In this document: positions 1-60,726 of the stretch, piece by piece
How positions within the stretch are numbered: position 1 is the first letter of the stretch
Layout: each line of letters begins with the position of its first letter
DNA from: the human T2T-CHM13v2.0 reference genome, Homo sapiens
Direction of reading: 5' to 3'
DNA: 64,000 nucleotides
Assembly (NCBI GenBank): GCA_009914755.4
Contig: CP068257.2
Location: 10,048,001-10,112,000, forward strand
Translations under genes and position numbers: made by a program
The notes under the pieces: model-generated
The model's database searches: none
Told to the model about the DNA's origin: nothing
The model's input: only the letters and a program-made list of their open reading frames with translations

Positions 1-582
1 GTAGTGGAGTGTGGTGGAATGAGTGGAGCAGAATGGAATGGAGTGGAATTGAGTGGAATGGAATGGAGTGGAATGGAATGGAATGGAATGGAGTGGAATG
101 GAATGGAATGCATTGGAGTTGAATGGAATGGAATGGAATGGAATGGAGGGGAATATAATGGAATGTAGTGCAATGAAATGTACTGGAGTGGAGTGCAGTG
201 GAGTGGAGTGGAATATAGTGAAATGGAGTGGAGTGGAACGGAGTGGAGTGGAATGGAATGGAATGAAATGGAACGGAACAGAACGGAAGAGAATGGAATG
301 GAAGGGGACAGAGTGGAGCGGAATGGAGTTGAGTGGAGGGGATCGGAGTGCAGTAGAATGGAATTGAATGGAATGGAATGGAGTGGAGTGGAGTGGAATG
401 GAATGGAGTGGAGTGGAATTGAATGGAAAGGAAAGAAATGGAATGGAATGGAACGGAATAGAATGGAACGGAACAGAACAGAGTGGAGTGGAGTGGAGTT
501 TAGTGGAGTGGATCGGAGTGCAGGGGAATGGAATGGAATGGAATGGAATGGAATGGAATGGAATGAAATGGAATGGAATGCA

Positions 583-652
583 ACTATGAAATAAAATGTG
601 AGCTAAGATTGTGCCACTGCACTCCAGTGTGGGTGACAGAGTTAGATCCAGT
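583..652 (+). mobile_element. Alu 3'-end fragment (~65-70 bp) embedded in HSat3
   Basis: gtgagctaagattgtgccactgcactccagtgtgggtgacagagttagatccagtcgaaacaaa matches the Alu right-arm terminus (GAGCCGAGATCGCGCCACTGCACTCCAGCCTGGGCGACAGAGCGAGACTCCGTCTCAAAA) in + orientation. Confidence 0.65.
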
Positions 653-890
653 CGAAACAAAGGAATGGAATGGAATGGAGTAGAATGGAATGGAATGGAG
701 TTGAGTGGAATGGAATGGAATGGAATGGAGTGGAGTGGAGTGGAATGGAGGGGAGTGGAGTGTAGTGGAATGAGTGGAGCGGAATTGAGCGGAATGGAAT
801 GGAGTTAAATTGAGTGGAATGGAATGGAATGGAATGGAGTGGAATGGAATGGAATGGAGTGGAATGTAATGGAATGGAGTGCAATAAAAT

Positions 891-917
891 GTAGTGTAGT
901 GTAGTGTAGTGTAGTGT
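891..917 (+). repeat. (GTAGT)n micro-variant run inside the satellite
   Basis: gtagtgtagtgtagtgtagtgtagtg replaces ggaat units locally. Confidence 0.6.
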
Positions 918-2427
918 AGTGGAATGGAGTGGAATGGAATGCAGTGCAGTGGGATGGAATGGAACGGAATGGAAGACAATGAAGTGCAGTGGATTGTAAT
1001 GGAATGGAGTGGAATAGAATGGAGTGGAGTGGTGTGGAGTGGAATGGAGTGGAGTGGAATGGAGTGGAAAGGAATGGAGTGGAGTGGAAAGGAATGGAAT
1101 GGAATGGAATGAAATGGAAAGGAATGGAAGGGAATGAAATGGAATGGAACAGAATAGATTGGAGTGGAATCGAGTGGAGTGGAGTAGGGTGGAGCGGATC
1201 GGAATGCAGTGGAATGAAATGGAATGGAATGGAATGGAATGGAATGAAATAGAATGGAATTTAGGGGAGTGGCGTGGGGTGGATTGAGTGGAGTTGAGTG
1301 CAGTAGTGTGGAATGGAGTGGAATGGAATGTAGTGGAGTGGAATGGAATGGAAAGGAACAGAAAGGAATGGAATGGAATGGAATGGAATGGAATGGAATG
1401 GAACAGAGTGGAGTCTAATGGAGTGAAATGGAGTGGAGTGGAGTGGAGCGGAATGAAATGGAGTGGAATGGAACAGAATGGAACTGACCAGAACGGAATG
1501 GAATCGAATGGAGTGGAGTGGAGTTGAGTGGAGTGGATCGGAGTGCAGTGGAATGAAATGGAATGGAATGGAATGGAATGTATTGGAGTGGATTCGAGTG
1601 GAGTGGAGTGTAGTTGAATGGAGTGGAATGAAATGCAGTGGAGTGGAATGGAATGGAATGGAGTGGAATGGAATAGAATAGAACGGAATGGAATGGAATG
1701 AAAAGGAATGGAGTGGAGTGGAGTTGACTGGAATGGATTGGATTGCCATGGAAAGGAAAGGAAAGGAATGGAATGGAATGGAATGGAATGGAATAGAATG
1801 GAATGGAAAGGAGTGTATTGGAATGGAGTGGAGTGGAGTTGACTGGAATGGATTGGATTGCCATGGAAAGGAAAGGAATGGAATGGAATGGAATGGAATG
1901 GAATGGAATGGAATGGAATGGAATGGAAAGGAGTGTAGTGGAATGGAGTGGAGTGGAGTGCAGTGGATTGGAGTGGAATGGAGTGGAGTGGAGTGCAGTG
2001 GAGTGGAAAGGAGTGGAGTGGTGTGGAATGGAATGGAGTGGAATGGAACGGAACCAAACTGAACAGAGTGGAAAGGAATGGAACGGAGTGGAGTTGAGTG
2101 GAGTAGAGTTGAGTGGAATGGATGGGAATGCTTTGGAATGGAATGGAAAATAATTTAATGAAATTTAGTTGAGTGGAGTGGATTTTATTGGAGTGGAGTG
2201 GAATGGAATGGATTAGAGTTTAGAGCAGTGGCGTGGAGTGGAGTGGAATGGAGTGGAATGGAGTGGAATGAAATGGAGTGGAGTGGAATGGAATGAAATG
2301 GATCAGAATGCTATGGAATGGAATGGAACGGAATGGAGTGGAGTGGAGTTGAGTGGAGTGGATGGGATAGCAGTGGAATGGAATGGAATGAAATGCAATT
2401 GAATGAAATGGAGTGGAATCATGCAAT

Positions 2428-2497
2428 GAAATGTGAGCTAAGATTGTGCCACTGCACTCTAGTCTGGGAGACAGAGTGAGATATAGTCGAAGTAAAA
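2428..2497 (+). mobile_element. Second copy of the same Alu 3'-end fragment embedded in HSat3
   Basis: aatgtgagctaagattgtgccactgcactctagtctgggagacagagtgagatatagtcgaagtaaaag. Same Alu segment, same orientation, ~1845 bp downstream of copy 1. Confidence 0.65.
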
Positions 2498-3592
2498 GAA
2501 TGGATTGAAATGCAGTAGAATATAATGGAATGGAGTGGAGTGGAATGGAATGAAGTGGAATAGAATGGAGTGGAGTGGAATGGAGGGGAGTGGATTGGAG
2601 TGGAGTGGAATGGAGTGGAATGGAATGAAATGGAGTGGAGTGGAGTGGAAGAAATAGAGTGGAATGAAGTGGAGTGGAATGGAGTGGAGGGGAGTGAGTG
2701 GAATGGGGTGCAGTGGAATGGAATGGAGTGGACTGGAGTGGAAGGGAGTGGAATGAATTGGAATGGAATGGATTGGAATGGAATGAATGGAGTGGAATGG
2801 AGTGGAGTGTATTGGAGTGGATTGTAGTGGAGGGAAGTGGAATGGAGTAGAATGGAGTGAAATGGAGTGGAGTGGAGTGGAGTGGAATGGAATGGAGTTT
2901 AATGGAATGGAAAGGAACGTACCAGAACAGAATGGAATGGAACGGAATGGAATGGAGTGGAATGGAGTGGAATTGTGTGGAGTGGATCGGAGTGCAGTGG
3001 AATGGAATGGAATGGAATGGAATGGAATGGAATGGAATGGAATGGAATGGAATGGAGTGGAGTGGGGTGGAGTGGATAGGAGTGGAATGGAATGGAGTGG
3101 TGTTGAGTAAACTGGAATAGAGTGGAATGGAATGGAGTGGATTGGAATGCAATGGAAAGGAACAGAATGGAATGAATGGAACAGAATGGTATAGAACGGA
3201 CGGAAAGGAGTGGAGTGGAATGGAGTTGAGTGGAGTGGATCGGATTGCTGTGGAATGGAAAGGAATGGAATGGAATGGAATGGAAAGGAATGTAGTGGAA
3301 TGGAGTGGAGTGGAGTGGAATGGAGAGGAGTGGAATGGAGTGTAGTGGAATGGAGTGGGGTGGAGTGGAGTGCAGTGGAGTGGAGTGCAGTGGAGTGGAA
3401 TGTAGTGGTTTGGAGTGTAATGGAATGGAGTGGAATGCAACGGAACAGAGGAGAATGCAACAGAATGGAATGGAATGGAGTGGAGTGGAGTAGAGTTGAG
3501 TGGAGTGGATCAGACTGCAGTGTAATGGAGTGGAATGGAATTTAAAGTAATCGAGTGGACTGGAGTGGAGTGGAGTTTAGTGGAGTGCGGTA

Positions 3593-4137
3593 GAATAGTT
3601 GTCTATTAGGTCCGCTTGGTGCAGAGCTGAGTTCAATTGCTGGGTATCCTTGTTGACTTTCTGTCTTGTTGATCTGTCTAATGTTGACAGTGGGATGTTA
3701 AAGTCTCCCATTATTAATGTGTGGGAGTCTAAGTCTCTTTGTAGGTCACTAAGCACTTGCTTTATGAATCTGGGTGCTCCTGTATTGAGTGCATATATAT
3801 TTAGGATAGTTAGCTCTTCTTGTTGAATTGATCCCTTTGCCATTATGTAATGGCCTTCTTTGTCTCTTTTGATCTTTGGTGGTTTAAAGTCTGTTTTATC
3901 AGAGACTAGGATTGCAACCCCTGCCTTTTTTTGTTTTCCATTTGCTTGGTAGATCTTCCTCCATTCTTTTATTTTGAGCCTATGTGTGTCTCTGCACGTG
4001 AGATGGGTTTCCTGAATAGAGCACACTGATGGGTCTTGACTCTTTATCCAATTTGCCAGTCTGTGTCTTTTAATTGGAGCATTTAGTCCATTTACATTTA
4101 AAGTTAATATTGTTATGTGTGAATTTGATCCTGTCAT
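3593..4137 (-). pseudogene. L1 ORF2 remnant (endonuclease domain, aa 1-~182 only)
   Basis: ATG at 4135-4137 on the minus strand; EN-domain residues conserved; reading frame ends where the element is truncated against HSat3. Confidence 0.85.
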
Positions 4138-4200
4138 GATGATGTTAGCTGGTGATTTTGCTCGTTAGTTGATGCAGTTTCTTCCTAGTCTCGATGGTCT

Positions 4201-5181
4201 TTACATTTTGGCATAATTTTGCAGCGGCTGGTACCGGTTGTTCCTTTCGATGTTTAGTGCTTTCTTCAGGAGCTCTTTTCGGGCAGGCCTGCTGGTGACA
4301 CAATCTCTCAACATTTGATTGTCTGTAAAGTATTTTATTTTTCCTTCACTTATGAAGCTTAGTTTGGCTGGGTATGAAATTCTGGGTTGAAAATTCTTGT
4401 CTTTAAGAATGTTGAATATTGGCCCCCACTCTCTTCTGGCTTGTAGGGTTTCTGCCGAGAGATCCACTGTTAGTCTGATGGGCTTCTCTTTGAGGGTAAC
4501 CGACCTTTCTCTCTGGCTGCCCTTAACATTTTTTCCTTCATTTCAGCTTTGGTGAATCTGACAATGATGTGTCTTGGAGTTGCTCTTCTCGAGGAGTATC
4601 TTTGTGGCGTTCTCTGTATTTCCTGAATCTGAACGTTGGACTGCCTGCAGAGTGTTTTCCAACTTGGTTCCATTCTCCCCATCACTTTCAGGTACACCAA
4701 TCATACGTAGATTTGGTCTTTTCACATAGTCCCATATTTCTTGGAGGCTTTGCTCATTTCTTTTTATTCTTTTTTCTCTAAACTTCCCTTCTAACTTCAT
4801 TTCATTCATTTCATCTTCCATCGCTGATACTCTTTCTTCCAGTTGATCGCATCGGCTCCTGAGGCTTCTGCATTCTTCACGTAGTTCTCGAGCCTTGGTT
4901 TTCAGCTCCATCAGCTCCTTTAAGCACTTCACTGTATTGGTTATTCTAGTTCTACATTTTTCTAAATTTTTTTCAAAGTTTTCAACTTGTTTGCCTTTGG
5001 TTTGAATGTCCTTCCGTAGCTCAGAATAATTTCATCATCTGAAGCCTTCTTCTCTCAGCTCATCAAAGTCATTCTCCATCCAGCTTTGTTCCGTTGCTGG
5101 TGAGGAACTGCGTTCCTTTGGAGGAGGAGAGGCACTCTGCTTTTTAGAGTTTCCAGTTTTTCTGCTCTGTTTTTTCCCCAT
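4201..5181 (-). pseudogene. L1 ORF1 remnant (disrupted by stops/frameshifts)
   Basis: ATGGGGAAAAAACAGA on the minus strand at 5179; terminal ...LQNYAKM with stop at 4201-4203; the frame is broken into three track ORFs (4201-4467, 4470-4700, 4543-4932). Confidence 0.85.
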
Positions 5182-5307
5182 CTTTGTGGTTTTATCTACT
5201 TTTGGTCTTTGATGATGGTGATGTACAGATGGGTTTTTGTTGTGGATGTCCTTTCTGTTTGTTAGTTTTCCTTCTAACAGACAGGACCCTCAGCTGCAGG
5301 TCTGTTC

Positions 5308-8300
5308 CAGTTTTGAACATTCTTTTTGTAGAATCTGCAAGTGGACATTTGGAGTGCATTGCAACCTATGGTAGCAAAGGAAATATCTTCACATAAAATC
5401 TAGAAAGAAGCAACCTGAGAAACTTCTTTGTGATGTGTGCATTCATATCACAGAGTTAAACATTTCTTTTGATGGAGAAGTTTTGAAACTATCTTTTTGT
5501 AGATCTAGCAATTGGACATTTGGAGCACTTTGAGGCCTATGGTGGAAAAGGAAATACCTTCACATAAAAACTAGAGAGAAGAGTTCTGAGAAACTTCCTT
5601 GTGATTCATACGTTCATCTCACAGATTTGAACCTTTCTTTTGATGGAGCAGTTTTGAAACTCTCTTTTTGTAGAATGTGCAAGTGGACGTTTGGAGCGCT
5701 TTGAAGCCTATGGTGTAAAAGGAAATATCTTCACATAAAAACCAGATAGAAGCTTTCTGAGAAACTTCTTTGTGATATGTGCATTCGTGTCCCTGACTTG
5801 AGCATTTCTTTTGAAGGACCAGTTTTCAAATACTGTTTTTGTAGAATCTGCAAGTGGACAATTCGAGTGTCTTGAGGCCTATGGTGGAAAAGAAAATATC
5901 TTCACATAAAAACTGGACAGAAGAATTCTGAGAAACCTCTTTGTGATGTGTACATTCGTATCTCAAAGTTTAATCTTTCTTCTGAAGGACCAGTTTTGAA
6001 ATCCTCTTTTTGAAGAATCCGCTAGCAGACATATTGTACGCCTTGAGGCGTATGCTGGAAAAGGAAATATCTTCACATAAAATCTAGACAGAAGCAATCT
6101 GAGAAACTTCCTTGTAATGTGTTCATTTATCTCACAGAGTTAAACCTTTCTTTTGATTGAGCAGTCTTGAAACTCTCTTTTTGTAGAATCTGTAAGTGGA
6201 CATTTTGTGTGTTTTGAAGCCTATGGTGGAAAAGGAAATATCTTCACATAAAAATCAGATAGAAACATTCTGAGAAACATCTTTGTGATGTGTACATTCA
6301 TCTCACAGAGTTAAACCTTTCTTTTGATAGAGCAGTTTTGAAACTCTCTTTTGTGGAAACTGCAAGTGGACATTTCGAGCACCTTGAGTCCTATGGTGGA
6401 AAATGTAATATCTTCACACAAATATTAGATAGAATAATTCTGAGAAACTTCTTTGTGATGTGTGCATTCACCTCAAAGAGTTGAACCATTCTTTTGATTG
6501 AGGAGTTTGGAAACACTCTTTTTGTAGTATCTGCAGGTGGACATTTGGAAAGCTTTTTGGCCTATGATAGAGAAGGAAATATCTTCACATAAAATCTAGA
6601 CAGAAGAAATCTGAGAAACTTCCTCGTGATGTGTGCATTCATCTCATAGAGTTAAAACTTTCTTTTGATTGAGAAGTTTTGAAACTCTCTTTTTTAAGTC
6701 TGCAAGTGGACATTTGGAGCAGTTTGAGGCCTGTGGTGGAAAAGGAAATATCTTCACATAAAAACTAAACAGAAGAATTCTGAGATAGTTTTTGTGATGT
6801 GTGTGTTCACCTCACAGAGTTGAACCATTCTTTTGGATGAGCAGTTTGGAAACACTCTTGTAGAATCTGCAAGTGGATATTTGGAGTGCTTTGCGGCCTA
6901 TGGTAGAAAAGGAAATATCTTCACATAAAATCTAGACAGAAGAAATCTGAGAAACCTCTTCATGATGTGTGCATTCATACCCAGAGTTTAAGCTTTCTTT
7001 TGATGGGTCAGTTTTGGAATACTCTTTTTGTTGGATCTGCAAGTGGACATTTTGAACACCTTGAGGCCTATGGTGGAAAATGAAATATCTTCACGTAAAA
7101 ACTAAACAGAAGAATTCTGAGAAACTTCTTTGTGATGCGTGCATTCACCTCACAGAGTTGAACATTTCTTTTGATTGAGCAGTTTGGAAACACTCTTTTT
7201 GTAGAATCTGCAAGTGGACATTCAGAGGGCTTTGTGGCCTATGGTAGAAAAGGAAATATCTTCACATAAAATCTCGACAGAAGCAACCTGAGAAACTTAT
7301 TTGTGATGTGTGCATTCATCACACAGAGTTAAAACCTTTTTTTAATTGAGCAGTTTTGAAACTCTCTTTTTGTAGAATCTGGACGTAGACAAGTGCAGCA
7401 TTTTCAGGCCTATGGTGGAAAAGGAAATATCTTCACATAAAAACTAGACAGAAGAAATCTGAGAAACTTCCTTGTGATGTGTCTGTTCATCTCACAGAGT
7501 TGAAACTTTCTTTTCATTGAGCAGTTTGGAAACATGCTTTTTGTAGAATCTGCAAGTGGACATTCAGAGGGCTTTGTGGCCTATGGTAGAAAAGGAAATA
7601 TCTTCACATAAAATCTAGACAGAAGCAATCTGAGAAAATTCTTTCTGATGTGTGCATTCATCTCACAGAGTTAAACCTTTCTTTTGATTGAGCAGTTTTG
7701 AAACTCTTTTTGTGGAATCTGCAAGTGGACATTTGGAGTGCTTTTCGGCCTATGATAAAAAAAGAAATATCTTCACATAAAATCTAGACAGAAGCCATCT
7801 GAGAAACTTCTTTGTGATGTCTGCATTCATCTCATAGAGTTAAAATTTTCTTTGAATGAGCACTTTTGAAACTCTCTTTTGTAGAATCTGCAAGTGGACA
7901 TTTGGAGTGCTTTGAGACCTATGATAGGAAAGGATATATCTTCACATAAAATCTAGACAGAAGCAATTTGAGAAACTTCACCATGATGTATGTATTCAAG
8001 TCACAGAGTTAAACCTTTCTTTTTAATTGAGCAGTTTTTTTTTTGTTTGTTTGTTTGTTTTTTTAGAATCTGTTAGTGGACGTTTAAGGCGCTTTGAGGC
8101 CTATGAAGGAAATGGAAATATCTTCACCTAAAAACTAAACAGATTTCTGAGAAACTTCTTTTTGATGTGTACGTTCATCTCACAGAGTTGAACCTTTCTT
8201 TTATTGAGCAGTTTGGAAACACTCTTTTCGCAGAATCTGCAAGAGTATATTTGGAGAGTTTTGAGGCCTATGGAGGAAAAGAAATATCTTCAGATAAAAA

Positions 8301-11300
8301 CTAATTAGAAGCATTCTGAGAAACTCCTTTGTGATGAGTGCATTCATGTCCCAGAGTTCAACATTTCTTTTGATGGGCCAGTATTGAAATAATCTTTTTG
8401 TGGAATCTGCAAGTGGACATTTGGAACGCCTTGAGGCCTATGGTGGAAAATGAAATATCTTCACGTAATAACTAGACAGAATAATTCCAGGAAACTTCAA
8501 TTGTGATGTGTGCATTCATCTCACAGAGCTGAACCTTTCTTTTGATTGAGAAGTTTGGAAACACTCTTTTGGCGAATCTGCAAGTGGAAAATTTGTATGC
8601 TTTGCAGTCAATGGTAGAAAAAGAATAATCTTCAATTAAAATCTACACGGAAGCAATCTGAGAAACTTCTTTGTGATATGTGCATTCATCTCACAGAGTT
8701 AAACCTTTATTTTGACTGAGCAGTTTTGAACTCTCTTTTTATATAATCTGCAAGTGGACGTTTGAACAGATATGAGGCCTACGGTGGAAAAGGAAATATC
8801 TTCACATAAAAACTAGAAAGAAGAATTCTGAGAACCTTCTTTGTGATGCATGCGTTCATCTCACAGATTTGAACCTTTGTTTGGATTGAGTAGTTTGGAA
8901 ACACTCTTTTTGTAAAATCTGCAAGTGGACATTTGGAGCACTTTGCGGCCTAAGGTAGAAAACAAATATCTTCACATAAAATTTAGACAGAAGCAATCTG
9001 AGAAACTTCTTTGTGATGAGTGCATTCATCTCACAGAGTTAAACCTTTCTTTGGATTGAGCAGTTTTGAAATTCTCTTTTTGTAGAATCTGCAAGTGAAC
9101 ATTTGGTGGGCTTTGAGGCCTTTGGTGGAAAAGAAAATATCTTTATATTAAATTTAGACAGAAGAATTCTGAGAAACTGTTTTGTGATGTGTGCGTTCAT
9201 CTCACAGAGTTGAATCTTTCTTTTGATTGAGCAGTTTGGAAACAATCATTTGTAGGATCTGCAAATGGCCATTTGGAGTGCTTTGTGGCCTGTGGTAGAA
9301 AAGGAAATATCTTCACATAAAATCTAGAAGGAAGCAATCTGAGAAACTTCTTTCTGATGTGTGCATTCATGTCACAGAGTTAAAACTTTCTTTATATTGA
9401 GCAGTTTTGAACCTCTCTTTTTGTAGAATCTGCAAGTGGATGTTTAGAGCGATTTGATACCTATGGTGGAAAAGAAAATATCTTCACAAAAAAACTAGAC
9501 AGAAGAATTCTGAAAAACTACTGGTGATGTTTGCGTTCATCTCACAGAGTTCAAAGTTTCTTTTGATGGAGCATTTTGGAAACACTCATTTTCTAGAATC
9601 TTCAGGTGGACATTAGGAGGGCTTTGAGGCCTATGGTGAAAAAGGAAATATCTTCACATGAAAACTAGAGAGAAGAATTCTGTGAAAGTTCTTTTGTTGT
9701 GGGCGTTCATCTCACCCAGATGAACCTTCTTTTGATTGAGCAGTTTGGAGACTCTCCTTCTTTAGAATCTGTAAGTGGATATTTGGAGACCTTTGTGGCC
9801 TATGGCAGAAAAGGAAATATCTTCATATAAATCTCTGCCGCAGCAACCTGAGAAACTTCTTTGTGATGTGTGCATTCATCTGACAGAGTTGAACCTTTCT
9901 TTTGATTGAGCAGTTTTGCAACTCTCTTTTTGTAGAATCTGCAAGTGGACATTTTGAGGGCTTTGAGGACTAAGGTGGAAAAGGAAATATCTTCACATAA
10001 AAACTAGACAGAAGAACTATGAAAAACTTCTTTGTGATATGTGCGTTCATCTCACAGAGTTGAAACTTTCTTTTGATTCAGCAGTTTGGAAACACTCTTT
10101 TCGTAGAATCTGCCAGTGGACATTTGGAGTGCTTGGCGGCCTATAGTAGAAAGGGAAATATCTTCATCTTAAGTCTAGACAGAAGCAATCTGAGAAACTT
10201 CTTTGTGAAGTGTGCATTCATCTCCAAGAGCTGAACCTTCCTTTTGATGTATCAGTTTTGAAATACTCTTTTTGTAGAATCTGCAAGTGGACATTTGGAA
10301 CGCCTTGGGGCCAATGGTAGAAAAGGGTATATCTTCATTTAAAATCTAGACAGAAGCAATCTGAGAAACTTCTTTGTGATGTAGGCATTCATCTGACAGA
10401 GTTAAACCTTTCTTTTGATTGAGCAGTTTGGAAACTCTCTTTTTGTAGAACCTGCAAATGGACATTTGGAGAACTTTGAGTCCTATGATGGAAAAAGAAA
10501 TATTCTCACATAAAAACTAGACAGAATAATTCTGAGAAACTTCTTTTTGATGCGTGTGTTCATCTCAAAGAGTTGAGCCTTTCTTTTGATTGAGGAGTTT
10601 GGAAACACTTTATCTTGTAGAATCTGCAAGTGGACATTTGGAGCGTTTTGCAGCCTATGGTAGAAAAGGAAATATCTACACATAAAATCTAGACAGAAGC
10701 TATCTGAAAATCTTCTTTGTGATGCGTGCATTCATATTCCAGAGTAAAGCCTTTCTTTTGATTCAGCAGTTTTGAAACTCTCTTTTTGTGTAATCTGGAA
10801 GTGGACATTTGGAGGGCTTTGAGGCCGATGGTGGAAAAGGAAATATCTTCAAAAATAAACTAGACATAAGCATTCTGAATAACTTCTTCATGATGTGTGC
10901 ATTCATCTCCCAGAGTTGAAGCTTTCTTTTAATGGACCAGTTTTGAAATACTCTTTTTGTAGAATCTGCAAGTGGACATTTCGAGCACCCTGAGGCCTAT
11001 AGAGGGAAAAGAAATACTTTCAGATAAAAATGAGACAGAAGAATTCTGAGAAACTTCTTTGTGATTTGTGCGTTCATATCACACAGGTGAAACTTTCTTT
11101 TGATTGAGCAGTTTGGAAACACTCTTTTTGTAGAATCTGCCAATGGACATTTGGTGTGCTTTGAGGCTTATGGTAGAAAAGGAAATCTCTTCACAGAAAA
11201 TCCAGACAGAAGCAATCTGAGAAACTTCTTTGTGATGTGTGCATTCATCTCACAGAGTGAAACCTTACTTTTGATGGAGTAGTTTTGAAATTCTCTTTTT

Positions 11301-14300
11301 GTAGAATCTGCAAATTGACATTGGGAGTGCTTTGAGGCCTACAGTGGAAAAGGAAATATGTTCACATAAAAACTAGACAGAAGCATTCTGAGAAACTTCT
11401 TTGTGATGTGTGCATTCATCTCAAAGAGTTGAAACTTTCTTTTGATGGACCAGGTTTGAAATACTCCTTTTGTAGAATCTGCCAGGGGGCATTTCGAGCA
11501 CCTTGAGGCCTAAGGTGAAAGTGAAATATCTTCATATAAAATCTTGACAGAAGCAATCTTAGAAACTTCTCTGTGATGTGTGCATTCATCTCACTAAGTG
11601 AAACCTTTCTTTTGATTGAGCAGTTTTGAAACTCTCTTTTTGTTGAATCTGCAGTTGGACACTTGGAGCGCTTTGAGGCCTAAGGTGGAAAAGGAAATAT
11701 CTTCACATAAAAACTAGACAGAAGAATTCTGAGAAACTTCTTTGTAATGTGTGCGTTCATTTCACAGAGTTGAACCTTTCTTTTGATTGAGCAGTTTTGA
11801 AACACTCTTATTGTAGAATCTGCATGTGGACATTTGGAGCACTTTGTGGCCTATGGTAGAAAAGGAAATATCTTCACATAAAATCTAGACAGAAGCAATC
11901 TGAGAAAATTCTTTGTGATGTGTGCATTCACCTTACAGAGTAAAACCTTTCTTTTGATTGAGCACTTTTAAAACTCTCTTTTTGTAGGATCTGCAAGTGG
12001 ACATTTGTAGCACCTTGAGGCCTATGATGGAAAAGGAAATATCTTCACTTAAAAAATAAACAGAAGAATTCTGAGAAACTTCTTTTTTATATGTGTGTTC
12101 ATCTCACAGAGTTGAACCTTTGATTGAGCAGTTTGGAAACTCTCTTTTTGTAGAATCTGCAAGTGGACATTTGGAGTGTTTTGTAGCCTATGGTAGAAAG
12201 GGAAATATCTTTACATACAATCTAGACAGAAGTAATCTGAGAATCTTCTCTGTGATGTGTGCATTCATCTCACAGAGTTAAGCCTTTATTATGATTGAGC
12301 ACTTTTGAAACTCTCTTTTTGTAGAATCTGCAATTGGACATTTGGAAGGCTTTGGGGCCTATGGTGGAAAAGGAAATATCTTCACATAAAAACAAGATAG
12401 AAGCGTTCTGAGAAACTTCTTTGTGATGTGTGCATCCATCTCCCAGAGTTGAACCTTTCTTTGGATGGACCAGTTTTGAAATACTGTTTTTGTAGGATCT
12501 GCAAGTGGACATTTTGAGCGCCTTGAGGCCTACGGTGGAAAAGGAAATATCTTCACATAGAAACTAGACAGAAGCATTCTGAGAAACCTCTTTGTGATGT
12601 GTGCATTCATCTCAAGGAGGTGAAACTTTCTTTTGATGGACCAGGTTCGAAATTCTCCTTTTGTAGAATCTGCCAGGGGGCATTTTGAGTGCCTTGAGGC
12701 CTATGGTGGAAAATGAAATATCTTCATATAAAAACTAGACAGAAGCATTCTGAGAAAGTTCTTTGTGATGTGTGCATTCATCTCACAGAGTTGAATCTTT
12801 CTTTTGATTGAGAAGTTTGGAAACACTGTTTTTGTAGAATCTGCAAGGGGCAGTTGGAACGCTTATTGTTCTATGGTGGAAAAGGAAATAACTTCATATA
12901 AAATCTAGACAGAAGCAATCTGAGAAACTTTTTGTGATGTGTGCTTTCATCTCACAGACTTAAACCTTCCTTTTGATTGAGCAGCTTTAGAAATCTCTTT
13001 TTGCAGAATCTGCAAGTGGACATTTGGAATGCTTTTAGGCCTATGGAAGAAAAGGAATTATCTTCACATAAAAACTAGCCAGAAGAATTCTGAGAGAATT
13101 CTTTGTGATGTGTGCATTCATCTGGCAGAGTTGAACCTTTCTTTTGATTGAGCAGTTTGGAAACACTCTTTTTGTAGAACCTGCAAGTGGACATTTGGAG
13201 CACTTTGCGGCCTATGGTAGAAAAGGAAATATCTTCACAAAAAATCTAGACAGAACCATTCTGAGAAACGAGTTTTTCTTGTGTGCATTCATCTCACAGA
13301 GTTAACCATTTCTTTTGATTGAGCATTTTTGAAACTCTATTTTTGTAGAATCTGCAAGTGGACATTTGGAGCACTTTGAGGCCTATGGTGTAAAAGGAAA
13401 TATCTTCACATAAAAACTAGATAGAAGCATTCAGAGAAACTTCTTTGTGATGTGTGCAATCATTTCCCAGAGTTAAACCTTTTTTTCTGATGGACCAATT
13501 ATGAAATAGTCTTTTTGTAGAATTTGCAGTTGGACATTTCGAGCACCTTGAGGACTATGGTGGAAAATGAAATATCTTCACATAAAAACTAGACACAAGT
13601 ATTCTGAGCAACTTCTATGTGATGTGTGCATTCATCTCACAGAGTTGGACCTTTCTTTTGATTGAGAAGTTTGTAAACCCTCTATTTGGAGAATCTGCAA
13701 GTGTACATTTGGAGTGCTTTGCCACCTATGGTAGAAAAGGAACTATCTTCACATAAAATCTAGACATAAGCAATCAGAGAAACTACTTTGTGTTTTGTGC
13801 ATGCCCCTGAGAGAGTTAAACCTTTCTTTTGATTGAGGAGTTTTGAAACTCTCTTTTTGTAGAATCCGCAAGTCGATATTTGGAGGGCATTAAGGCCTCT
13901 GGTGGAAAAGGAAATATCTTCACATAAAAACTAAACAGAAGAATTCTGAGAAACTTCTTTGTGATGCGTGCATTCATCTTACAGAGGTGAACCTCTTTTT
14001 TGATTGAGCTGTTTGGAAACATTCTTTTTGTGGAATCTACAAGTGGATATTTGGAACGCTTTGGGGCCTGTGGTAGAAAAGGAAATATCTTCACATAAAA
14101 TCTAGACAGAATCAACCTGACAAACGTCCTTGTGACGTGTGCTTTTGTCTAAGAGAGTTAAACCTTTCTTTTGATTGAGGAGTTTTGAAACTCTCCTTTT
14201 GTAAAATCTGCAAGTGGATATTTGGAGTGCTTTGAGGCCTATGGTGGAAAAGGAAATATCTTCACATAAAAACTAGACAGAAGAGTTCTGAGAAACTTCT

Positions 14301-14650
14301 TTGTGATGTGTGCGTTCATCTCACAGTGTTCAAAGTTTCTTTTCATGGAGCAATTTGGAAACACTCTTTTTGTAGAATCTTCAAGTGGACATTTGGAGGG
14401 CTTTGAGGCCTCTGGTGGAAAAGCAAATATCTTCACATGAAAACTGGAGAGAAGAATTCTGTGAAACTTTTTTCTGATACATGCGTCCATCTCACACAGA
14501 TGAACCTTCCTTTTGATTGGGCAGTTTGGAGACACTCTTTCTGTAGAATCTGCAAGTGGACGTTTGGAGCCCTTTGTGACCAATGGTAGAAAAGGAAGTA
14601 TCTTCATATAAATCTCTGCCGAAACAACCAGATAAACTTCTTTGTGATGT
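5308..14650 (+). repeat. Alpha satellite layer A: 171-bp monomers in consensus orientation, predominantly dimeric (alternating 'ggtagaaaagg...aaatctagacagaagcaatctgag...gagttaaacc' and 'ggtggaaaagg...aaaactagacagaagaattctgag...gagttgaacc' monomer types); 'caagtggacatttggag' type
   Basis: 'cttcac' landmarks at 5387, 5558, 5729 give a 171-bp period. Matches the alpha-satellite consensus (cattctcagaaacttctttgtgatg...gagcagttttgaaacactctttttgtagaatctgcaagtgga...). A-type monomers. Confidence 0.9.
8037..8076 (+). repeat. T-rich/(TTTG)n simple-repeat expansion inside one alpha monomer
   Basis: gagcagttttttttttgtttgtttgtttgtttttttagaatc. Confidence 0.7.
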
Positions 14651-17600
14651 GTACATTCATCTCACAGAGTTGAACCTTTCTTTTGATTGAGCAGTTTTGA
14701 AACACTCTTTTTGTAGAATGTGCAAGTGGATATTTGGAGCTCTTTGTGGCCTATGGCAGAAAAGGAAATATCTTCACATAAAAATTACAAAGAAGCATTC
14801 TGATAGACATGTTTGTGTTGAGTGCATTCAGCTCACAGAATTGAACCTATGTTTTGATTGAGCAGGTTTGAAACACTCTTTGTAGAATCTGCAAGTGGAT
14901 ATTTGGATCGATTTGACGCCTATTGTGGAAAAGGAAATATCTTCACATAAAACCTACACAGCAGCATTCTGAGAAACTTCTTTGTTTTGTGTGCATTCAA
15001 CTCATGGAGTCAAACCTATCTTTTGATTGAGCAGTTTTGAATCTCTCTTTTTGCATAATCTGTGAGTGGATATTTGGAGAGATTTGAGGCCTATTGTGGA
15101 AAAGGAAATATCTTCACAGCGAAACTACACAGAAGCATTCTGAGAAACTTCATGGTGATGTGTGCGTTCATCTCACAGAGATGAATCTTTCTTTTCATTT
15201 AGCAGTTTTGAAACACTGTATAATCTGCAAGCGGATAGTTGGAGTGCTTTGAGGCCTATTGTTGAAAAGAAAATATCTTCAAATGAAATCTACACAGAAG
15301 CATTCTGAGAAACCTCTTTGTGATGTGTGCATTCATCTCACAGAGTTGAACCTTTCTTTTGATTGAGCAGTTTTGAAAAACTCTTTATGTAGAATCTGCA
15401 AGTTGATATTTGGAGCGCTTAGATTCCTATTGTGGAAAAGGAAATATCTTTACATAAAAACTGCATAGAATCATTCTGAGAAACTTCTGTGGGATGTGTG
15501 CATTCATCTCACAATGTTGAACCTTTCTTTTCATTCAGCAGTTTTGAATCTTTCTGTTTGTAGAATCTGCAAGTGGATATATGGAGAGCTTTGAGGCCTA
15601 TGGTGGAAATGGAAATATCTTCACATAAAAACTACACAGAAGTATTCTGAGAAACACCTTTGTTAAGGTTAAGTGTGCATTAAACTCACAGAGTTGAAAC
15701 TTTCTTTTGATTGAGCAGTTTTGAATCTCTCTTTTGGTAGAATCTACAAGAGGATATTTGGAGCCATTTTCAGCCTATGGTGGAAAAGGAAATACCTTCA
15801 CATGAAAACTACAAAAAAGATTTCTGAGGAACTTCTATGTCATGTGTGCCTTCATCTCACAGAGTTGAACCTTTCTTTTGATTTAGCAGTTTGGAAACAC
15901 TCTTTTTGTTGTATCTACAAGTGACTGTTTGGACCACTTTGAAGCCTATGGTGGAAAAGGAAATATCTTTAAATAAAAACTACACAGAAGCATTCTGAGA
16001 AACTTCTTTGTGATGTGTGCTTTCATCTCACATTATTGAACCTATCTTATGATTGGGCAGTTTTGAAACACTCTTTTTATAGAATCTGCAAGTGTATATT
16101 TGGAGCCGATGTGGCCTATTGTGAAAAAGGAAATATCTTCACATAAAAACTACACAGAAGCATTCTGAGAAACCACTTTGTGATATGTGCATTAAACTCA
16201 CAGAGTTGAATCTATCTTTTCATTGAGCAGTTTTGATTCCCTCTTTTTGTAGGATTTGCAAGTGGTCATATGGAGCCCTTTGCGGCCTATGGAGGAAAAG
16301 GAAATATCTTCAAATAAAAACTACCCAGAAGCATTCTGAGGAACTTCTTTGCTATGTGTGCATTCAACTCACAGAGTTGAAACTATCTTATGATTCAGCA
16401 GTTTTGAAGCACTGTTTTTGTAGAGTCTTCAAGTGGATATTTGGAGCACTTTGAGGCCTACTGTGGAAAAGCAAATATCTTCACATAAAAACTGCACAGA
16501 AGCATTCTGAGAAACTTCTTTGTGATGTGTGCATTCAACTCACAGAATCGAACCTATATTTTGATGGAGCAGTTTTTAATCTCTCTTTTTGCAGAATCTG
16601 CAAGTGGATATTTGGAGGCCTTTGAAGCCTAGTGTGGAAAAGGAAATATCTTCACATAACAACTACACAGAAGCATTCTGAGAAACTTTTTGTGATGTGT
16701 GTATTCAACTCACAGAGTTGAACCTATGTTTTGATTGAACAGTTTTGAATCGCTCTTTTTGTAGAATCTGAGAGTGAATATTTGCAGTGCTTTTAGGTCT
16801 ATTGTGGAAAAGGAAATATTTTCACATAAAAACTACACAGAAGCTTTCTGAGAAATTTCTTTGTTATGAGTGCATTCATCACACATAGTTGAACCTTTCT
16901 TTTTGATTGAACAGTTTTGTAACACTCTTTATGTAGAAACTGCAAGTGGATATTTGGAGGGCTTTGAGGTCTATTTTGGAAAAGGCAATATCTTCATATC
17001 AAAACTACACAGAAGCATTCTGAGAAACTTCTTTGTGATGTGTACATTCAACTCACAGTGTTGAAACTATCTTTTGATAGAGCAGTTTTGAAACACTCTT
17101 TTTGTAGAATCTGCAAGTGTATATTTGGAAAGCTTTGAGGCCTACTGTGGAAAAGGAAATATCTTCATGTAAAAACTACACTTAGGCAGTCTGAGAAACT
17201 TCTTTATGATGTGTGCATTCATCATACAGATTTTAACTTCTTTTGATTGAGCAGATTTGAAACACTCTTTTTGTAGAATCGGCAGGTGGATATTTGGAGG
17301 GTTTTGAGGCCTATTTTGGAAAAGGAAATATCTTCACATAAAAACTACACAGAAGCATTCTGAGAAACATCTTTGTGATGTGTACATTCAACTCACAGAG
17401 TTGAACCAATGTCTTAGTGGAGCAGTTTTGAATCTTTTTGTGGAATCTTCAACCGGATATTTGGAGCCCTTATCAGCCTATGGTGGAAAAGGAAATATCT
17501 TTAAATAAACTCTACACGGAGGAATTGTGAGAAATTTCTTTGTGATGTGTGAACTCATCTCACAGAGTTGAAATTTCCTTTTGATTGAGCAGTTTTGAAA

Positions 17601-20600
17601 TGCTGTTTTCATAGAATCTGCAAGTGGATATTTGGAGCGCTTTGAGGCCTATTGTGGAAAGGGAAATATCTTCACATAAAAACTACACAGAAGCATTCTG
17701 AAAAACTACTTTGTGATGTGTGCATTCATCTCACAGTGTTGAAATTTTCTTTTGATTGAGCAATTCTGAAATGCTGTTTTCATAGAATCTGCAAGTGGAT
17801 ATTCAGAGCGCTTTGAAGCCTACTGTGGAAGAACAAATATCTTCACATAAGAACTGCACTGAGGCATTCTGAGAAACTTCTTCATGATGTGTGCATTCAA
17901 CTCACATAGTTGAACCTATCTTTTGATTGGGCAGTATTGGATCTCTCTTCGTAGAATCTGCAATTGGATATTTGGTGCCCTTTGTGGCCTATGAATGAAA
18001 AGGAAATACCTTAAAAGAAAAGGTACACAGAAGCATTCAGAGAAACTTCTTCATGATGTGTGCATTCATCTCACAGAGGTGAACCTTTCATTTGATTGAG
18101 CAGTTTTGAAACACTCTCTTTGTAGAATCTGTAAGTGGATACTTGGAGCCTTTTGAGGCCTACTGTGGAAAAGGAAATATCTTCACATAAAAACTACACA
18201 GAAGATTTCTGGGAAACTTCCCTGGGATATGTGCATTCCTCTCACAGAGTTGAACATTTCTTTTGATTGAGCAGTTTGGAAACACTCTTTTTGAACCGTC
18301 TGCAAGTGGATATTTGGAGTAATTGAGGCCTACTCTGAAGAAGAAAATATCTTCACATAAAATCAACACAGAGGCATTCTGAGAAACTTCTATGAGATGT
18401 GTGCCTTCATCTCACAGAGTTGAACATTTCTTTTGATTGAGCAGTTTTGAAACAATCTTTTTGTAGGATCTGCAAGCAGATATTTGGAGCCCTTTGTGGC
18501 CTAAAGTGGAAAAGGAAATATCTTCAAATAAAAACTACACAGAAGCATTCTGAGGAACTTCTTTGTTATGTGTGCATTCAACTCACAGAGTTGAAATTAT
18601 CTTATGATTCAGCAGTTTTGAAACACTGTTTTTGTAGAATCTTCAAATGGATATTTGGAGCGTTTTGAGGCCTACTGTGGAAAAGCAAATATCTTCACAT
18701 AAAAACTTCACAGAAGAATTCTGGGAAACTTCTTTGTGATGTCTGCATTCATCTCACACAGCTGAACCTGTCTTATGATAGAGCAGTATTGAAACAATCT
18801 TTTTGTAGAATCCACAAGTGGATATTTGGAGTGTTTTGAGACCTATTTTGGAAAACAAAATATCTTAACATAAAAACTACACAAAAGTACCCTGATAAAC
18901 TTATTTGTGATGTGTGCATTTATCTCAGAGATTTGAAACTATCTTATGATTTAGCAGTTATGAAACACTCTATTTGTAGAATCTGCAAGTGGATATTTGG
19001 GGCCTTTTGAGGACTATTGTGGAAAAGGAAATATCTTCACATAAAAACAACACAGAAGCATTCTGAGAAACTTCTTTGTGATGGGTGCATTCATCTCACA
19101 GGGTTGAACCTATTTTATAATTCAGCAGTTTTGAAATACTCTATTTGTAGAATATGCAAGTGGATATTTGGAGCGCTTTGAGGCCAACAGTTGAACAGCA
19201 AATATATTTACATAAAAACTACACAGAAGCATTCTGAGAAACTTCTTTGTGATGTGTTCATTCATCTTACAGAGTTGAACCTTTCTTTTGATTGAGCAGT
19301 TTTGAAACACTCTTTGTGTAGAATCTGCATTTGGATATTTGGAGAACTTTGATGCATATTGTGGAAAAGGAAATATCTTCAAATAAAAACTACACAGTAG
19401 CATTCTGATAAACTTCTTTGTGAATTGTGAATTCCTCTCACAGAGTTTAACCTATGTTTTGTTTGAGCAGTTTTTAATCTCTTTTTGTAGAATCTGAACA
19501 GAGTGCTTTGAGGCCTATTGTGGAAAAGGAAATATCTTCACATAAAAATTTCACAGAAGTATTCTGAGAAACTACTGTCTGATGAGTGTATTCATCACAC
19601 AGGATGAACGTGTCTTTTGATTGAGCAGTATTGAAACACTGTTTTTGTATATTCTGCAAGTGGATATTTGGAACGCTTTGAGGCCTATTGTGGAAAAGAA
19701 AATATCTTCACTTAAAGACCACACAGAAGCATTCTGAGAAACTTCTTTGTGATGTGTACATTCAACTCACCGATGTGAATCTATCTTTTGATTAGCAGTT
19801 TTGAAACTCTCTTTTTGTAGTATCTGCAGTTGTATATTTGGAGCCCTTTGAGACCTATGATGGAAAAAGAAATGCCTTCATATGAAAACTACACAGAAGT
19901 ATTCTGAGAAACTCCTTTGTGATGTGTGCATTCAACTCACAGATTTGAACCTATCATTTGATTGAGCCATTTTGAAACTGTCTTTTTCTATTATCTGCAA
20001 GTGAATATTTCTAGCCTTTTGTGGCCTATTTTGGAAAAGGACATGCCTTCACATAAAAAACAAACAGAAGTATTCTGAGAAACTTCTTTGTGATGTGAGC
20101 ATTCATCTCACAGAGATGAACCTTTCTTTTGATTGAGCAGTTTTGAAAGAATCTTTTTGAAGTATCTGCAAGTGAATATTTGGAGCACTTTGAGGCCTAA
20201 TGTGTGGAAGAAATATCTTCACATAAAAACTACATAGAAGCTTTCTGAGAAACTTCTCTGTGATGTGTGCATTCAACTCATGGAGTTGAACCTATTTTTT
20301 CATTGAACAGTTTTGAAACTCTTTTTGTAGAATCTGCAAGTGGATATTTGGAGCCATTTGTGGCCTATGGTGGAAATGGGAATATCTTCAACTAAAAACT
20401 ACACAGAAGCATTCTGAGAAACTTCGTGGTGATGTGTGCATTCATCTCACAGAGATGAATCTTTCTTTTTCATTTAGCAGTTTTTAAACACTCTGTTTGT
20501 AGAATCTGCAAGTGGATAATTGGAGCACTTTGAGGCAAATAGTTGAAAAGAAAATATCTTCACATGAAATCTACACAGAAGCATTCCGAGAAACCTCTTC

Positions 20601-21981
20601 GTGAAGTGTGCTTTCATCTCACAGAGTTGAACCTTTCTTTTGATTGAGCAGTTTTGAAAAACTCTTTTTGTAGAATCTGCAAGTTGATATTTGGAGCGCT
20701 TAGGTTCCTATTGTGGAAAAGGAAATATCTTCACATAAAAGCTGCACAGAATCATTCTAAGAAAGTTCTGTGTGATGTGTGCATTCATCTCACAGTGTTG
20801 AACTTTTCTTTTCATTCAGCAGTTTTGAAACTTTCTTTTTGTAGAATCTGCAGGTGGATATTTGGAGCTCTTTGAGTCCTATGGTGGAAATGGAAATATC
20901 TTCACATAAAAACTACACAGAAGCATTATGAGAAACATCTTTGTTAACACAGAAGCATTCTGAGAAACATATTTGTTAAGTGTGCATTAAACTAACAGAG
21001 TTGAAACTATCTTTCGATTGAGCAGTTTTGAATCTCACTTTTTGTAGAATCTGCAAGAGGATATTTGGAGCCCTTTGCGGCCTACAGTGGAAAAGGACAT
21101 ACCTTCACATAAAAACTACAAAAAAGATTTCTGAGGACATTCTTTGTCATGTGTGCCTTCATCTCACGGAGTTGAACCTTTCTTTTGATTGAGCAGTTTG
21201 GAAACACTTTTTTTGTAGTATCTAAAGTGGATGATTGGATCGCTTTGAGGCCTATGGTGGAAAAGGAAATATCTTCACATGAGAACTACACAGAAGCATT
21301 CTGAGAAACTTCTCTGCAATGTGTGCATTCAACTCACAAGTTTGAACCTATCTTTTGATTCAGCAATTTTGAAACTCTCTTTTTGTAGAATCCGCAAGTG
21401 GATATTTGGAACTATTTGCTACCTATTGTGGAAAAGGAGATATCTTCACATAAAAACTACAGAGAAGCATTCTGAGAAACTTCTTTGTGATTTGTGCATT
21501 CATCTCACAGAGTTGAACCTTTCTTTTGATTAAGCAGTTATGAAACAGTCTTTTTAAAGGATCAGCAAGTGGATATTTGGAGGACTTTTAGGCCTATTGT
21601 GTAAAAGGAGATATCTTCACATAAAAACTAAGCAGAACCATTCTGAGAAACTACTTTGCAATGTGTGCATTCATCTCACAGAGTTGAAACTTTCTTTTGA
21701 TTGAGCAGTTTGGAAACACTCACTTTGTAGAATCTGCAAGTGGATATTTGGAGCGCTTTGTGGCCTATGGTGGAAATGGGTATACCTTCACATAAAAACT
21801 ATGTGGAAGTATTCAGAGAAACTTCTTTGTGATGTGTGCATACAACTCACAGAGTTGAAACTTTCGTTTGGTTGAGCAGTTTTGAAACTCTCTTTTTGTA
21901 GAATCTGCAAGTGGATATTTGGAGCCCTTTGTGGCCTATGGTGGAAAGGGAAATATTTTCACATAAAAACTACACAGAAGC
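14651..21981 (+). repeat. Alpha satellite layer B: monomeric, divergent; 'caagtggatatttggag' / 'aaaactacacagaagcattctgag' / 'cctattgtggaaaagg' type
   Basis: Abrupt change of diagnostic positions around 14.62-14.70 kb (ggacatttgg becomes ggatatttgg; ctagacagaag becomes ctacacagaag). The 171-bp period is maintained. Confidence 0.85.
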
Positions 21982-24044: not shown

Positions 24045-24107
24045 AGTCCACTGTGGCTAGTAAGAAACTGCATCAACTAACGAGCAAAATAACCAAAAAA
24101 CATCATA

Positions 24108-27932
<3,825 letters not shown>

Positions 27933-28167
27933 GCGATGAGAACACATGGACACAGGAAGGGGAACATCACACTCTGGGGACTGATGTGGGGTGGGGGTAG
28001 GGGGGAGGGAGAGCATTAGGAGATATACCTAATGCTAAATGACGAGTTAATGGATGCAGCACACCAACATGGCACATGTACACATATGTAACTAACCTGC
28101 ACAATGTGCACATGTACCCTAAAACTTAAAGTATAATAATAATAAAATAAATTAAATTTAAAAAAAA

Positions 28168-45043: not shown

Positions 45044-45053
45044 AAAAGGAAAA

Positions 45054-59156: not shown

Positions 59157-60726
<1,570 letters not shown>

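What the first reader, a model, noticed from the sequence alone, without database searches (positions are those of the whole stretch)
3560..5340. L1 fragment without 3' end or TSD forms the exact boundary between HSat3 and alpha satellite
The minus-strand L1 piece lacks its 3'UTR and polyA. It stops ~545 nt into ORF2 directly against (GGAAT)n, and stops in mid-5'UTR directly against an alpha monomer ('...gcaggtctgtt|ccagttttgaacattctttttgtagaatc'). A simple retrotransposition cannot produce this, since retrotransposed L1s retain the 3' end. Either two rearrangement breakpoints fall inside an older L1, or an L1-mediated or non-homologous joining event brought the two satellite families together. 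So the L1 marks, and roughly dates, the HSat3/alpha-satellite junction.
Basis: partly seen in the sequence, partly recalled or inferred. Interest (0 to 1): 0.55.

Follow-up and report, generated by a model that had tools for sequence, protein, structure and literature searches.

The report
Truncated L1 between two satellite blocks
A 1.7-kb front piece of an ape-age L1 retrotransposon really does sit exactly between a GGAAT-type satellite and old alpha satellite, but this looks like an ordinary L1 insertion into alpha satellite that later lost its tail in one pericentromeric rearrangement.

Summary
Window 3596-5306 (minus strand, 1711 nt) is an L1 piece: the last 125 nt of the 5'UTR, a decayed ORF1, the 63-nt spacer and ORF2 nt 1-542. 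It abuts a GGAAT/GGAGT pentamer satellite (1-3595) on its 3' side and monomeric alpha satellite (5307 onward) on its 5' side. It has no 3'UTR and no polyA, and no L1 remainder lies elsewhere in the window.

The L1/alpha junction needs no rearrangement. It looks like a normal 5'-truncation junction, as in the other L1 insertions in this alpha array, which all have polyA tails and target-site duplications. An endonuclease-type site (CCAGTTTT/GA) lies 8 nt from the junction.

Only the ORF2/satellite junction is abnormal. It is blunt, with no microhomology.

Most likely an L1PA3-like element (about 3.5% from a young-L1 reference) inserted into alpha satellite. One later non-homologous event (deletion, inversion or satellite insertion) then removed its 3' 3.6 kb. 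The L1 therefore gives only a maximum age for the present junction.

An endonuclease-independent L1 patch at a double-strand break cannot be excluded. No other haplotype or species copy could be retrieved. Ordinary, low interest.

The parts
1..3595 (+). Diverged pentameric satellite, a (GGAAT)n/(GGAGT)n mixture of HSat3 type. It runs off the left end of the window.
   Evidence: TRF finds period 5 over 31-3574 with 74% matches. Pentamer counts are GGAAT 231 and GGAGT 170, with no AYTCGGGTTG 10-mer. Purity is uniform along the block, with no edge gradient. No L1 remnant is present.
3596..4137 (-). L1 ORF2 nt 1-542 (endonuclease domain aa 1-180). It is cut off bluntly against the satellite. This is the abnormal junction (3595|3596).
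   Evidence: phmmer against PDB L1 ORF2p chains gives E=2e-111 with about 94% identity over aa 1-180. The three-way alignment ends at ATAGACAACTA. The flank is not L1-like and shares 1 of 5 terminal bases.
4138..4200 (-). L1 inter-ORF spacer (63 nt).
   Evidence: Alignment to the in-window full-length L1 and to the recalled L1HS-like reference.
4201..5181 (-). L1 ORF1, decayed: two stop codons at codons 49-50, a 35-nt deletion near 4646 and a 1-nt deletion.
   Evidence: Translation, alignment and ORF list.
5182..5306 (-). Last 125 nt of the L1 5'UTR. The L1 starts at about nt 785 in L1.3 numbering, exactly at the 3' edge of the 128/129-nt segment carried by older L1PA elements.
   Evidence: Alignment, segment coordinates and numbering from splice acceptor A788G789 in PMC5860796.
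5307..5314 (+). CCAGTTTT followed by GA. Inferred surviving copy of the target-site duplication and L1 endonuclease site (TTTT/GA). An alternative 21-nt candidate ends at TTTTT/GT (5307-5327).
   Evidence: Sequence. The same site type is used by the L1 at 43004-43419, whose duplication is GAACCCTTGTTTT/GA. A random position in this alpha array has such a site in range 20% of the time. This is an inference, not shown.
5307..21991 (+). Monomeric alpha satellite (99 monomers, no higher-order repeat). It is the presumed original target of the L1.
   Evidence: nhmmer blocks. Monomer identity is a flat ~0.82 at every lag from 1 to 24. TRF finds period 171.

Best explanation
An L1PA3-like element (range L1PA2-L1PA4) inserted by ordinary target-primed reverse transcription, in minus orientation, into pre-existing old monomeric alpha satellite. 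It was 5'-truncated at about nt 785. The L1/alpha junction at 5306|5307 is therefore the original 5' junction, and CCAGTTTT is probably the surviving target-site duplication copy.

Later, a single non-homologous event with one breakpoint at ORF2 nt 542 and the other in the GGAAT-type satellite joined the two. It removed or displaced the 3' ~3.6 kb of the L1, its polyA, the other duplication copy and the alpha satellite beyond it. The event could have been a deletion towards a neighbouring satellite block, an inversion, or insertion and expansion of the satellite inside the L1.

The fragment has no function. It is a scar that sets a maximum age for the present junction.

Shown: the anatomy, the blunt junctions, the relative L1 ages, and the canonical nature of the neighbouring L1s. 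Inferred: the order of events and the type of rearrangement.
For: 1. The fragment is a colinear L1 piece running from the 5'UTR end to ORF2 nt 542, with no internal rearrangement.
2. The other four L1 insertions in the same alpha array are canonical, so TPRT into this array was recurrent. The full-length L1 at ~21993-28168 has polyA and the duplication AAAAACTACACAG. The one at 43004-43419(-) has a polyT run and GAACCCTTGTTTT. The one at 45051-45936(+) has an A-rich tail and AAAAAGGAAA. The one at 59155-60746 has a ~27-nt duplication. Two of these are 5'-truncated directly against alpha monomers, like the fragment.
3. TTTT/GA lies 8 nt from the 5' junction, and TTTTT/GT lies at 21 nt. Only 20% of random positions in this alpha array have such a site at 7-20 nt. 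This is weak support, roughly four-fold.
4. The alpha satellite is old monomeric sequence with flat ~82% identity and no higher-order repeat. It already hosts an older full-length L1 that is 93.7% identical to the young-L1 reference, keeps 5 of 24 CpGs and carries the 128-nt segment. The fragment is younger: 96.55% identity, 15 of 24 CpGs kept, 39 private differences against 89. So the alpha satellite predates the fragment.
5. The ORF2/satellite junction shows no polyA, no T-run, no microhomology and no L1-like continuation, as expected for a non-homologous join.
6. Sen et al. 2007 state that deletions removing the 3' end of classical insertions mimic this architecture. Altemose et al. report frequent inversions and insertions in divergent alpha satellite and HSat3. 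An alpha strand switch lies in this same window at about 56,930.
Against: - The second target-site duplication copy and the L1 3' part are not in the window, so TPRT origin cannot be proved.
- The endonuclease-site argument is weak, since it has a 20% chance expectation.
- The 5' junction has no microhomology. This is neutral.
- The satellite runs off the window edge, so deletion, inversion and insertion cannot be told apart.
- No orthologous or allelic sequence could be retrieved.
It was checked only by translation against PDB chains.
Confidence: 0.6

Rival explanations
1. Both ends are secondary. An older L1, inserted elsewhere or nearby, was cut by two independent rearrangement breakpoints, one joined to alpha satellite and one to the pentamer satellite.
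For: Both junctions are blunt and no target-site duplication is detectable. Pericentromeric sequence is rearrangement-prone, and there is a strand switch in this window.
Against: It needs two events where one suffices. The 5' end looks like the ordinary 5'-truncation junctions of the neighbouring L1s, with an endonuclease-type site at duplication distance. The first alpha monomers after the junction resemble the rest of the array, with best matches of 0.87-0.88.
Confidence: 0.15
2. Endonuclease-independent L1 insertion (a non-classical L1 insertion, or a class-2 templated patch). An internal 1.7-kb stretch of L1 RNA or cDNA was used to bridge a double-strand break, directly creating or repairing the satellite/alpha junction.
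For: The criteria of Sen et al. 2007 that can be seen here are met: 3' truncation, no polyA and no recognisable target-site duplication. The satellite-side junction (GGTAGAAT|) is unlike TTTT/A. DSB patches templated from distant sequence are documented (PMC5110952).
Against: Such events are rare: 21 loci genome-wide among young L1s. There is no microhomology at either junction, whereas annealing by short complementarity is the proposed mechanism. An endonuclease-type site at duplication distance on the alpha side points to TPRT.
Confidence: 0.1
3. Assembly artefact: a false join or collapse at the satellite/L1 boundary.
For: Satellite-rich regions are error-prone. No independent copy of either junction string was found in any searchable collection. 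Those collections are not human genome resources, so this is nearly uninformative.
Against: The sequence on both sides is internally coherent. The four other L1s in the window have intact duplications, which argues for good local assembly quality. There is no composition or periodicity anomaly at the junction.
Confidence: 0.05

Closest known systems
Classical 5'-truncated TPRT L1 insertion later truncated at its 3' end by a genomic deletion or rearrangement
   Same: It shows colinear L1 sequence and a 5' truncation abutting target DNA. An endonuclease-type site lies near the 5' junction. The host is old monomeric alpha satellite, which is known to accumulate L1s.
   Different: The polyA, 3'UTR and second target-site duplication copy are missing, and a different satellite family replaces them. 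The rearrangement type is unknown.
Non-classical (endonuclease-independent) L1 insertions, Sen et al. 2007 (PMC1920257); class-2 templated sequence insertions (PMC5110952)
   Same: It is 3'-truncated, has no polyA, has no target-site duplication and is flanked by unrelated sequences.
   Different: There is no junction microhomology, and an endonuclease-type site is present on the alpha side. The pre-insertion allele is unavailable, so membership is unproven.
Twin-priming L1 inversion (an example in this window at 59155-60746)
   Same: It contains an L1 internal segment with no polyA of its own.
   Different: A twin-primed segment is joined to a direct 3' segment with polyA inside one target-site duplication. 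Here there is no adjoining L1 3' segment.
L1-based dating of alpha-satellite layers (Altemose et al., 10.1101/2021.07.12.452052, Fig. 3C legend)
   Same: L1 age is used as a time marker in the pericentromere. Three L1 age classes are seen in this array.
   Different: Here the L1 bounds the age of a rearrangement junction, not of an array layer.

Membership tests
LINE-1 (L1PA lineage) element | Homology to L1 ORF1p and the ORF2p endonuclease, in the order 5'UTR-ORF1-spacer-ORF2 | tested here: met
   ORF2p aa 1-183 gives E=2e-111 against PDB chains, and the fragment is 90.4% identical at DNA level to the in-window full-length L1.
LINE-1 (L1PA lineage) element | 3'UTR and polyA tail | tested here: not met
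   The L1 ends at ORF2 nt 542 against the satellite, with no T-run. No remainder lies in the window.
Canonical TPRT insertion | Target-site duplications flanking the element | tested here: inconclusive
   The left flank is satellite and shares nothing with the right flank CCAGTTTTGAAC.... The original 3' flank is presumably lost.
Canonical TPRT insertion | Endonuclease consensus (TTTT/A-like) at the insertion site | tested here: inconclusive
   TTTT/GA lies 8 nt from the 5' junction, but the chance expectation is 0.20.
Canonical TPRT insertion | 5' truncation or full length with an intact 3' end | tested here: not met
   The 5' truncation is present (nt ~785), but the 3' end is absent.
Endonuclease-independent / non-classical L1 insertion (Sen 2007 criteria) | 3' truncation of more than 20 nt and no polyA | tested here: met
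Endonuclease-independent / non-classical L1 insertion (Sen 2007 criteria) | Absence of target-site duplications and divergence from the endonuclease consensus | tested here: inconclusive
   No duplication is seen. The satellite side is not endonuclease-like, but the alpha side has TTTT/GA in range.
Endonuclease-independent / non-classical L1 insertion (Sen 2007 criteria) | A reconstructed pre-insertion allele showing that the flanks are unchanged and that no later deletion occurred | not testable with these tools
   No orthologous or allelic sequence was retrievable.
Endonuclease-independent / non-classical L1 insertion (Sen 2007 criteria) | Microhomology at both junctions | tested here: not met
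   There are 0 nt at the alpha junction. At the satellite junction 1 of 5 terminal bases match, which is background level.
Twin-priming L1 inversion | An inverted 5' segment adjoining a direct 3' segment with polyA, within one target-site duplication | tested here: not met
   No adjoining L1 segment is present.
Human satellite 3 | (GGAAT)n / (ATTCC)n pentameric array | tested here: met
   TRF finds period 5 with 706 copies. GGAAT is the top pentamer.
Human satellite 3 | Interspersed 10-mer CAACCCGA(A/G)T, i.e. AYTCGGGTTG on this strand (definition recalled from memory) | tested here: not met
   There are 0 matches with up to 1 mismatch in 1-3595.
Monomeric alpha satellite | 171-bp monomers without higher-order periodicity | tested here: met

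The most novel reading that the evidence does not exclude
The 1.7-kb L1 piece is an endonuclease-independent L1 cDNA patch that sealed a double-strand break. In doing so it directly fused a GGAAT-type satellite domain to alpha satellite. This would be an L1-mediated origin of a satellite-domain boundary in a hominid pericentromere, datable to no more than about 10-15 million years.
Probability: 0.08. Interest if true: 0.5.

Novelty: already known. Interest (0 to 1): 0.18.

Why it matters
If the reading is right, the locus is a routine pericentromeric scar. It gives a usable upper age bound, roughly L1PA3 age, for when this satellite block came to lie against this alpha array. It is also a unique sequence tag (two junction strings) for following that boundary across human haplotypes and ape assemblies. 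It does not reveal a new mechanism. Only if an empty-site allele showed an endonuclease-independent origin would it become a notable example of L1 repairing or creating a satellite-domain junction.

Tried and rejected
1. Looked for other copies of the locus. All of the following were empty, or returned only generic L1-antisense proteins covering the L1 half of the query:
- exact-protein look-ups of ORFs spanning or inside the fragment;
- exact junction strings in metagenome contigs and genome contigs;
- a homology search with the 70-aa ORF that spans the L1/alpha junction.

2. Looked for the missing L1 3' part. There is nothing in the satellite block. The other L1 pieces in the window each belong to their own insertion, bounded by a target-site duplication. 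The 59155-60233(-) ORF2 piece was considered as a displaced remainder and rejected. It does not abut the fragment in L1 coordinates (a 280-nt gap), it lies on the wrong side, and it sits inside its own duplication.

3. Tested whether the L1 extends further into the satellite through a GTGGAG/GTAGA resemblance. The flank is no better than background.

4. Tested for internal priming at an A-rich tract. The L1 sequence at the break is not A-rich and the flank is not T-rich.

5. Considered a spliced L1 (SpIRE97/790), because the 5' end lies 5 nt from acceptor A788G789. Rejected, because no L1 nt 1-97 precede it.

6. An Rfam scan of 1-8000 found nothing.

7. Khan et al. 2006 (L1PA ages) is not held in the library. 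The ages quoted are from memory, plus PMC5860796 (L1PA6 about 27 million years ago).
Full report
**What is there**

The window is primate pericentromeric sequence, very probably human.
- Positions 1-3595 are a G-rich period-5 satellite. TRF reports 31-3574, 706 copies and 74% matches. It is made of GGAAT (231) and GGAGT (170) pentamers.
- From 5307 on there are 171-bp alpha-satellite monomers: 99 monomers up to 21991.
- Monomer identity is a flat ~0.82 at every lag from 1 to 24, so this is old monomeric alpha satellite with no higher-order repeat.

Between the two satellites, 3596-5306 on the minus strand is L1.
- It aligns at 90.4% over 1754 columns to a full-length L1 in the same window, at 22898-24648.
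- Its 186-aa ORF matches human L1 ORF2p endonuclease chains over aa 1-183 at E=2e-111.
- The upstream frame translates as ORF1p with two stop codons, a 35-nt deletion and a 1-nt deletion.
- In detail it holds 125 nt of 5'UTR (5182-5306), ORF1 (4201-5181), the 63-nt spacer and ORF2 nt 1-542 (3596-4137).

**Check of the observation**

It is confirmed, with small corrections.
- The L1 limits are 3596 and 5306.
- The 5' break is not 'mid-5'UTR'. It lies at about nt 785 of the 5'UTR. The numbering is anchored on splice acceptor A788G789 in PMC5860796.
- There is no polyA or T-run on the satellite side.
- No L1 remnant lies anywhere in 1-3595.
- The 30 nt left of 3596 are no more L1-like than background satellite 30-mers. 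The fraction of background windows scoring at least as high is 0.08 gapped and 0.24-0.86 ungapped.
- The pentamer block lacks the classical HSat3 10-mer, with 0 matches at up to 1 mismatch. 'HSat3' is therefore met only in the loose pentamer sense.

**Controls inside the window**

Four other L1 insertions sit in the same alpha array, and all are canonical.
- A 6.18-kb full-length element at ~21993-28168 has polyA and the target-site duplication (TSD) AAAAACTACACAG.
- A 5'-truncated minus-strand 3' end at 43004-43419 has a polyT run and the TSD GAACCCTTGTTTT, at a TTTT/GA site.
- A 5'-truncated plus-strand 3' end at 45051-45936 has the TSD AAAAAGGAAA.
- An inverted-plus-direct composite at 59155-60746 sits inside one TSD of about 27 nt.

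TPRT into this array was therefore recurrent. A 5'-truncated L1 ending bluntly against an alpha monomer is the normal picture here.

**The key point about the two junctions**

Only the ORF2/satellite junction is anomalous. The L1/alpha junction (…GCAGGTCTGTT|CCAGTTTTGAAC…) is what a 5'-truncated TPRT insertion in minus orientation looks like.

The flank begins with CCAGTTTT followed by GA. That is an L1 endonuclease-type site (TTTT/GA) that would give an 8-nt TSD. A second candidate, TTTTT/GT, would give 21 nt.

A random position in this alpha array has a TTTT/[AG] site at 7-20 nt only 20% of the time. This is modest support, about four-fold. Both junctions lack microhomology.

**Age**

No L1PA consensus library was available.
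- Its ORF1p and ORF2p match PDB chains of human L1. The ORF2p N-terminus has 1 difference in 215 aa. ORF1p differs at a few positions, some of which may be construct-specific rather than recall errors.

Against that reference:

| Element | Identity | CpGs kept | Private differences |
|---|---|---|---|
| Fragment | 96.55% (59 mismatches) | 15 of 24 | 39 |
| In-window full-length L1 | 93.7% | 5 of 24 | 89 |

Eighteen sites are shared by the two window elements against the reference.

The full-length element also carries the 128-nt 5'UTR segment at 22777-22904. This is the ZNF93-binding region lost in L1PA2/L1HS (10.1101/429563 and PMC5860796).

The fragment is thus clearly younger than the full-length element. 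It is roughly L1PA3-like (range L1PA2-L1PA4), on the order of 10-15 million years by ages recalled from Khan et al. 2006, which is not held in the library. These numbers are approximate.

The alpha array predates the fragment. That fits insertion of the L1 into alpha satellite.

**Most likely history (confidence about 0.6)**

1. The L1 inserted by TPRT into monomeric alpha satellite and was 5'-truncated at nt ~785.
2. Later, one non-homologous event with a breakpoint at ORF2 nt 542 joined it to the pentamer satellite. This removed or displaced about 3.6 kb of L1 3' sequence, the polyA, the second TSD copy and the adjoining alpha satellite.

Deletion, inversion, and insertion or expansion of the satellite within the L1 cannot be told apart, because the satellite runs off the window edge. 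Such events are common in these regions (Altemose et al.), and this window has its own alpha strand switch near 56,930. Sen et al. 2007 warn explicitly that deletions of L1 3' ends mimic non-classical insertions.

**Rivals**

- Two independent breakpoints (0.15). This needs an extra event and ignores the TPRT-like 5' junction.
- An endonuclease-independent L1 patch at a double-strand break (0.1). The visible criteria are met: 3' truncation, no polyA and no TSD. But such events are rare, there is no microhomology at either junction, and the alpha side carries an endonuclease-type site.
- Mis-assembly (0.05). This is untestable without reads. The intact TSDs of the neighbouring L1s argue for sound local assembly.

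**What could not be done**

No other haplotype or species copy was retrievable. The following gave nothing specific: exact-protein look-ups, junction-string scans of the metagenome and prokaryote-genome collections, and a homology search with the junction-spanning ORF.

**Verdict**

The feature is real and ordinary in kind. The L1 gives a maximum age for the present junction rather than dating the origin of the satellite adjacency. Novelty: already known kind. Interest: low (0.18).

Noticed in passing
window 5300-5306 versus 22777-22904: The fragment's first L1 base (AACAGACC...) coincides to the nucleotide with the 3' edge of the 128/129-nt ZNF93-site segment. That segment is present in the in-window full-length L1 and deleted in L1PA2/L1HS. 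The position is 5 nt upstream of splice acceptor A788G789. This may be coincidence or a break-prone spot.
   Followed up: partly
window 59155-60746: An L1 insertion made of an inverted ORF2 piece (59155-60233, minus strand) joined to a direct 3' end with an A-rich tail (60231-60746). Both sit inside one target-site duplication of about 27 nt. The two pieces are 1.65 kb apart in L1 coordinates, a larger internal gap than is usual for twin priming.
   Followed up: partly
window 43004-43419 (minus strand): A very young 5'-truncated L1 3' end. It is 98% identical to a recalled L1HS 3' end and has ACG at the Ta/pre-Ta diagnostic trinucleotide, with a clean 13-nt target-site duplication GAACCCTTGTTTT. 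This suggests the window is human and that the array is still an L1 target.
   Followed up: partly
window ~56,900-56,960: The alpha-satellite strand switches from plus to minus (an inversion breakpoint) in mid-monomer. Alpha satellite stays in minus orientation to the end of the window, apart from the L1 at 59-60 kb.
   Followed up: no
window ~2432-2505: A roughly 70-nt 5'-truncated Alu 3' end with a short A-rich tail lies inside the pentamer satellite. It is heavily CpG-decayed.
   Followed up: no
window 1-3595: The pentamer satellite is a near-equal GGAAT/GGAGT mixture with no AYTCGGGTTG 10-mer. It shows no higher-order period within 3.6 kb and no purity gradient towards the junction.
   Followed up: partly
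window 21977-21992: The full-length L1 has about 13 extra nucleotides (CCAACTGGCAAAT) between its left target-site duplication and the L1 5' end. They may be untemplated or transduced.
   Followed up: no
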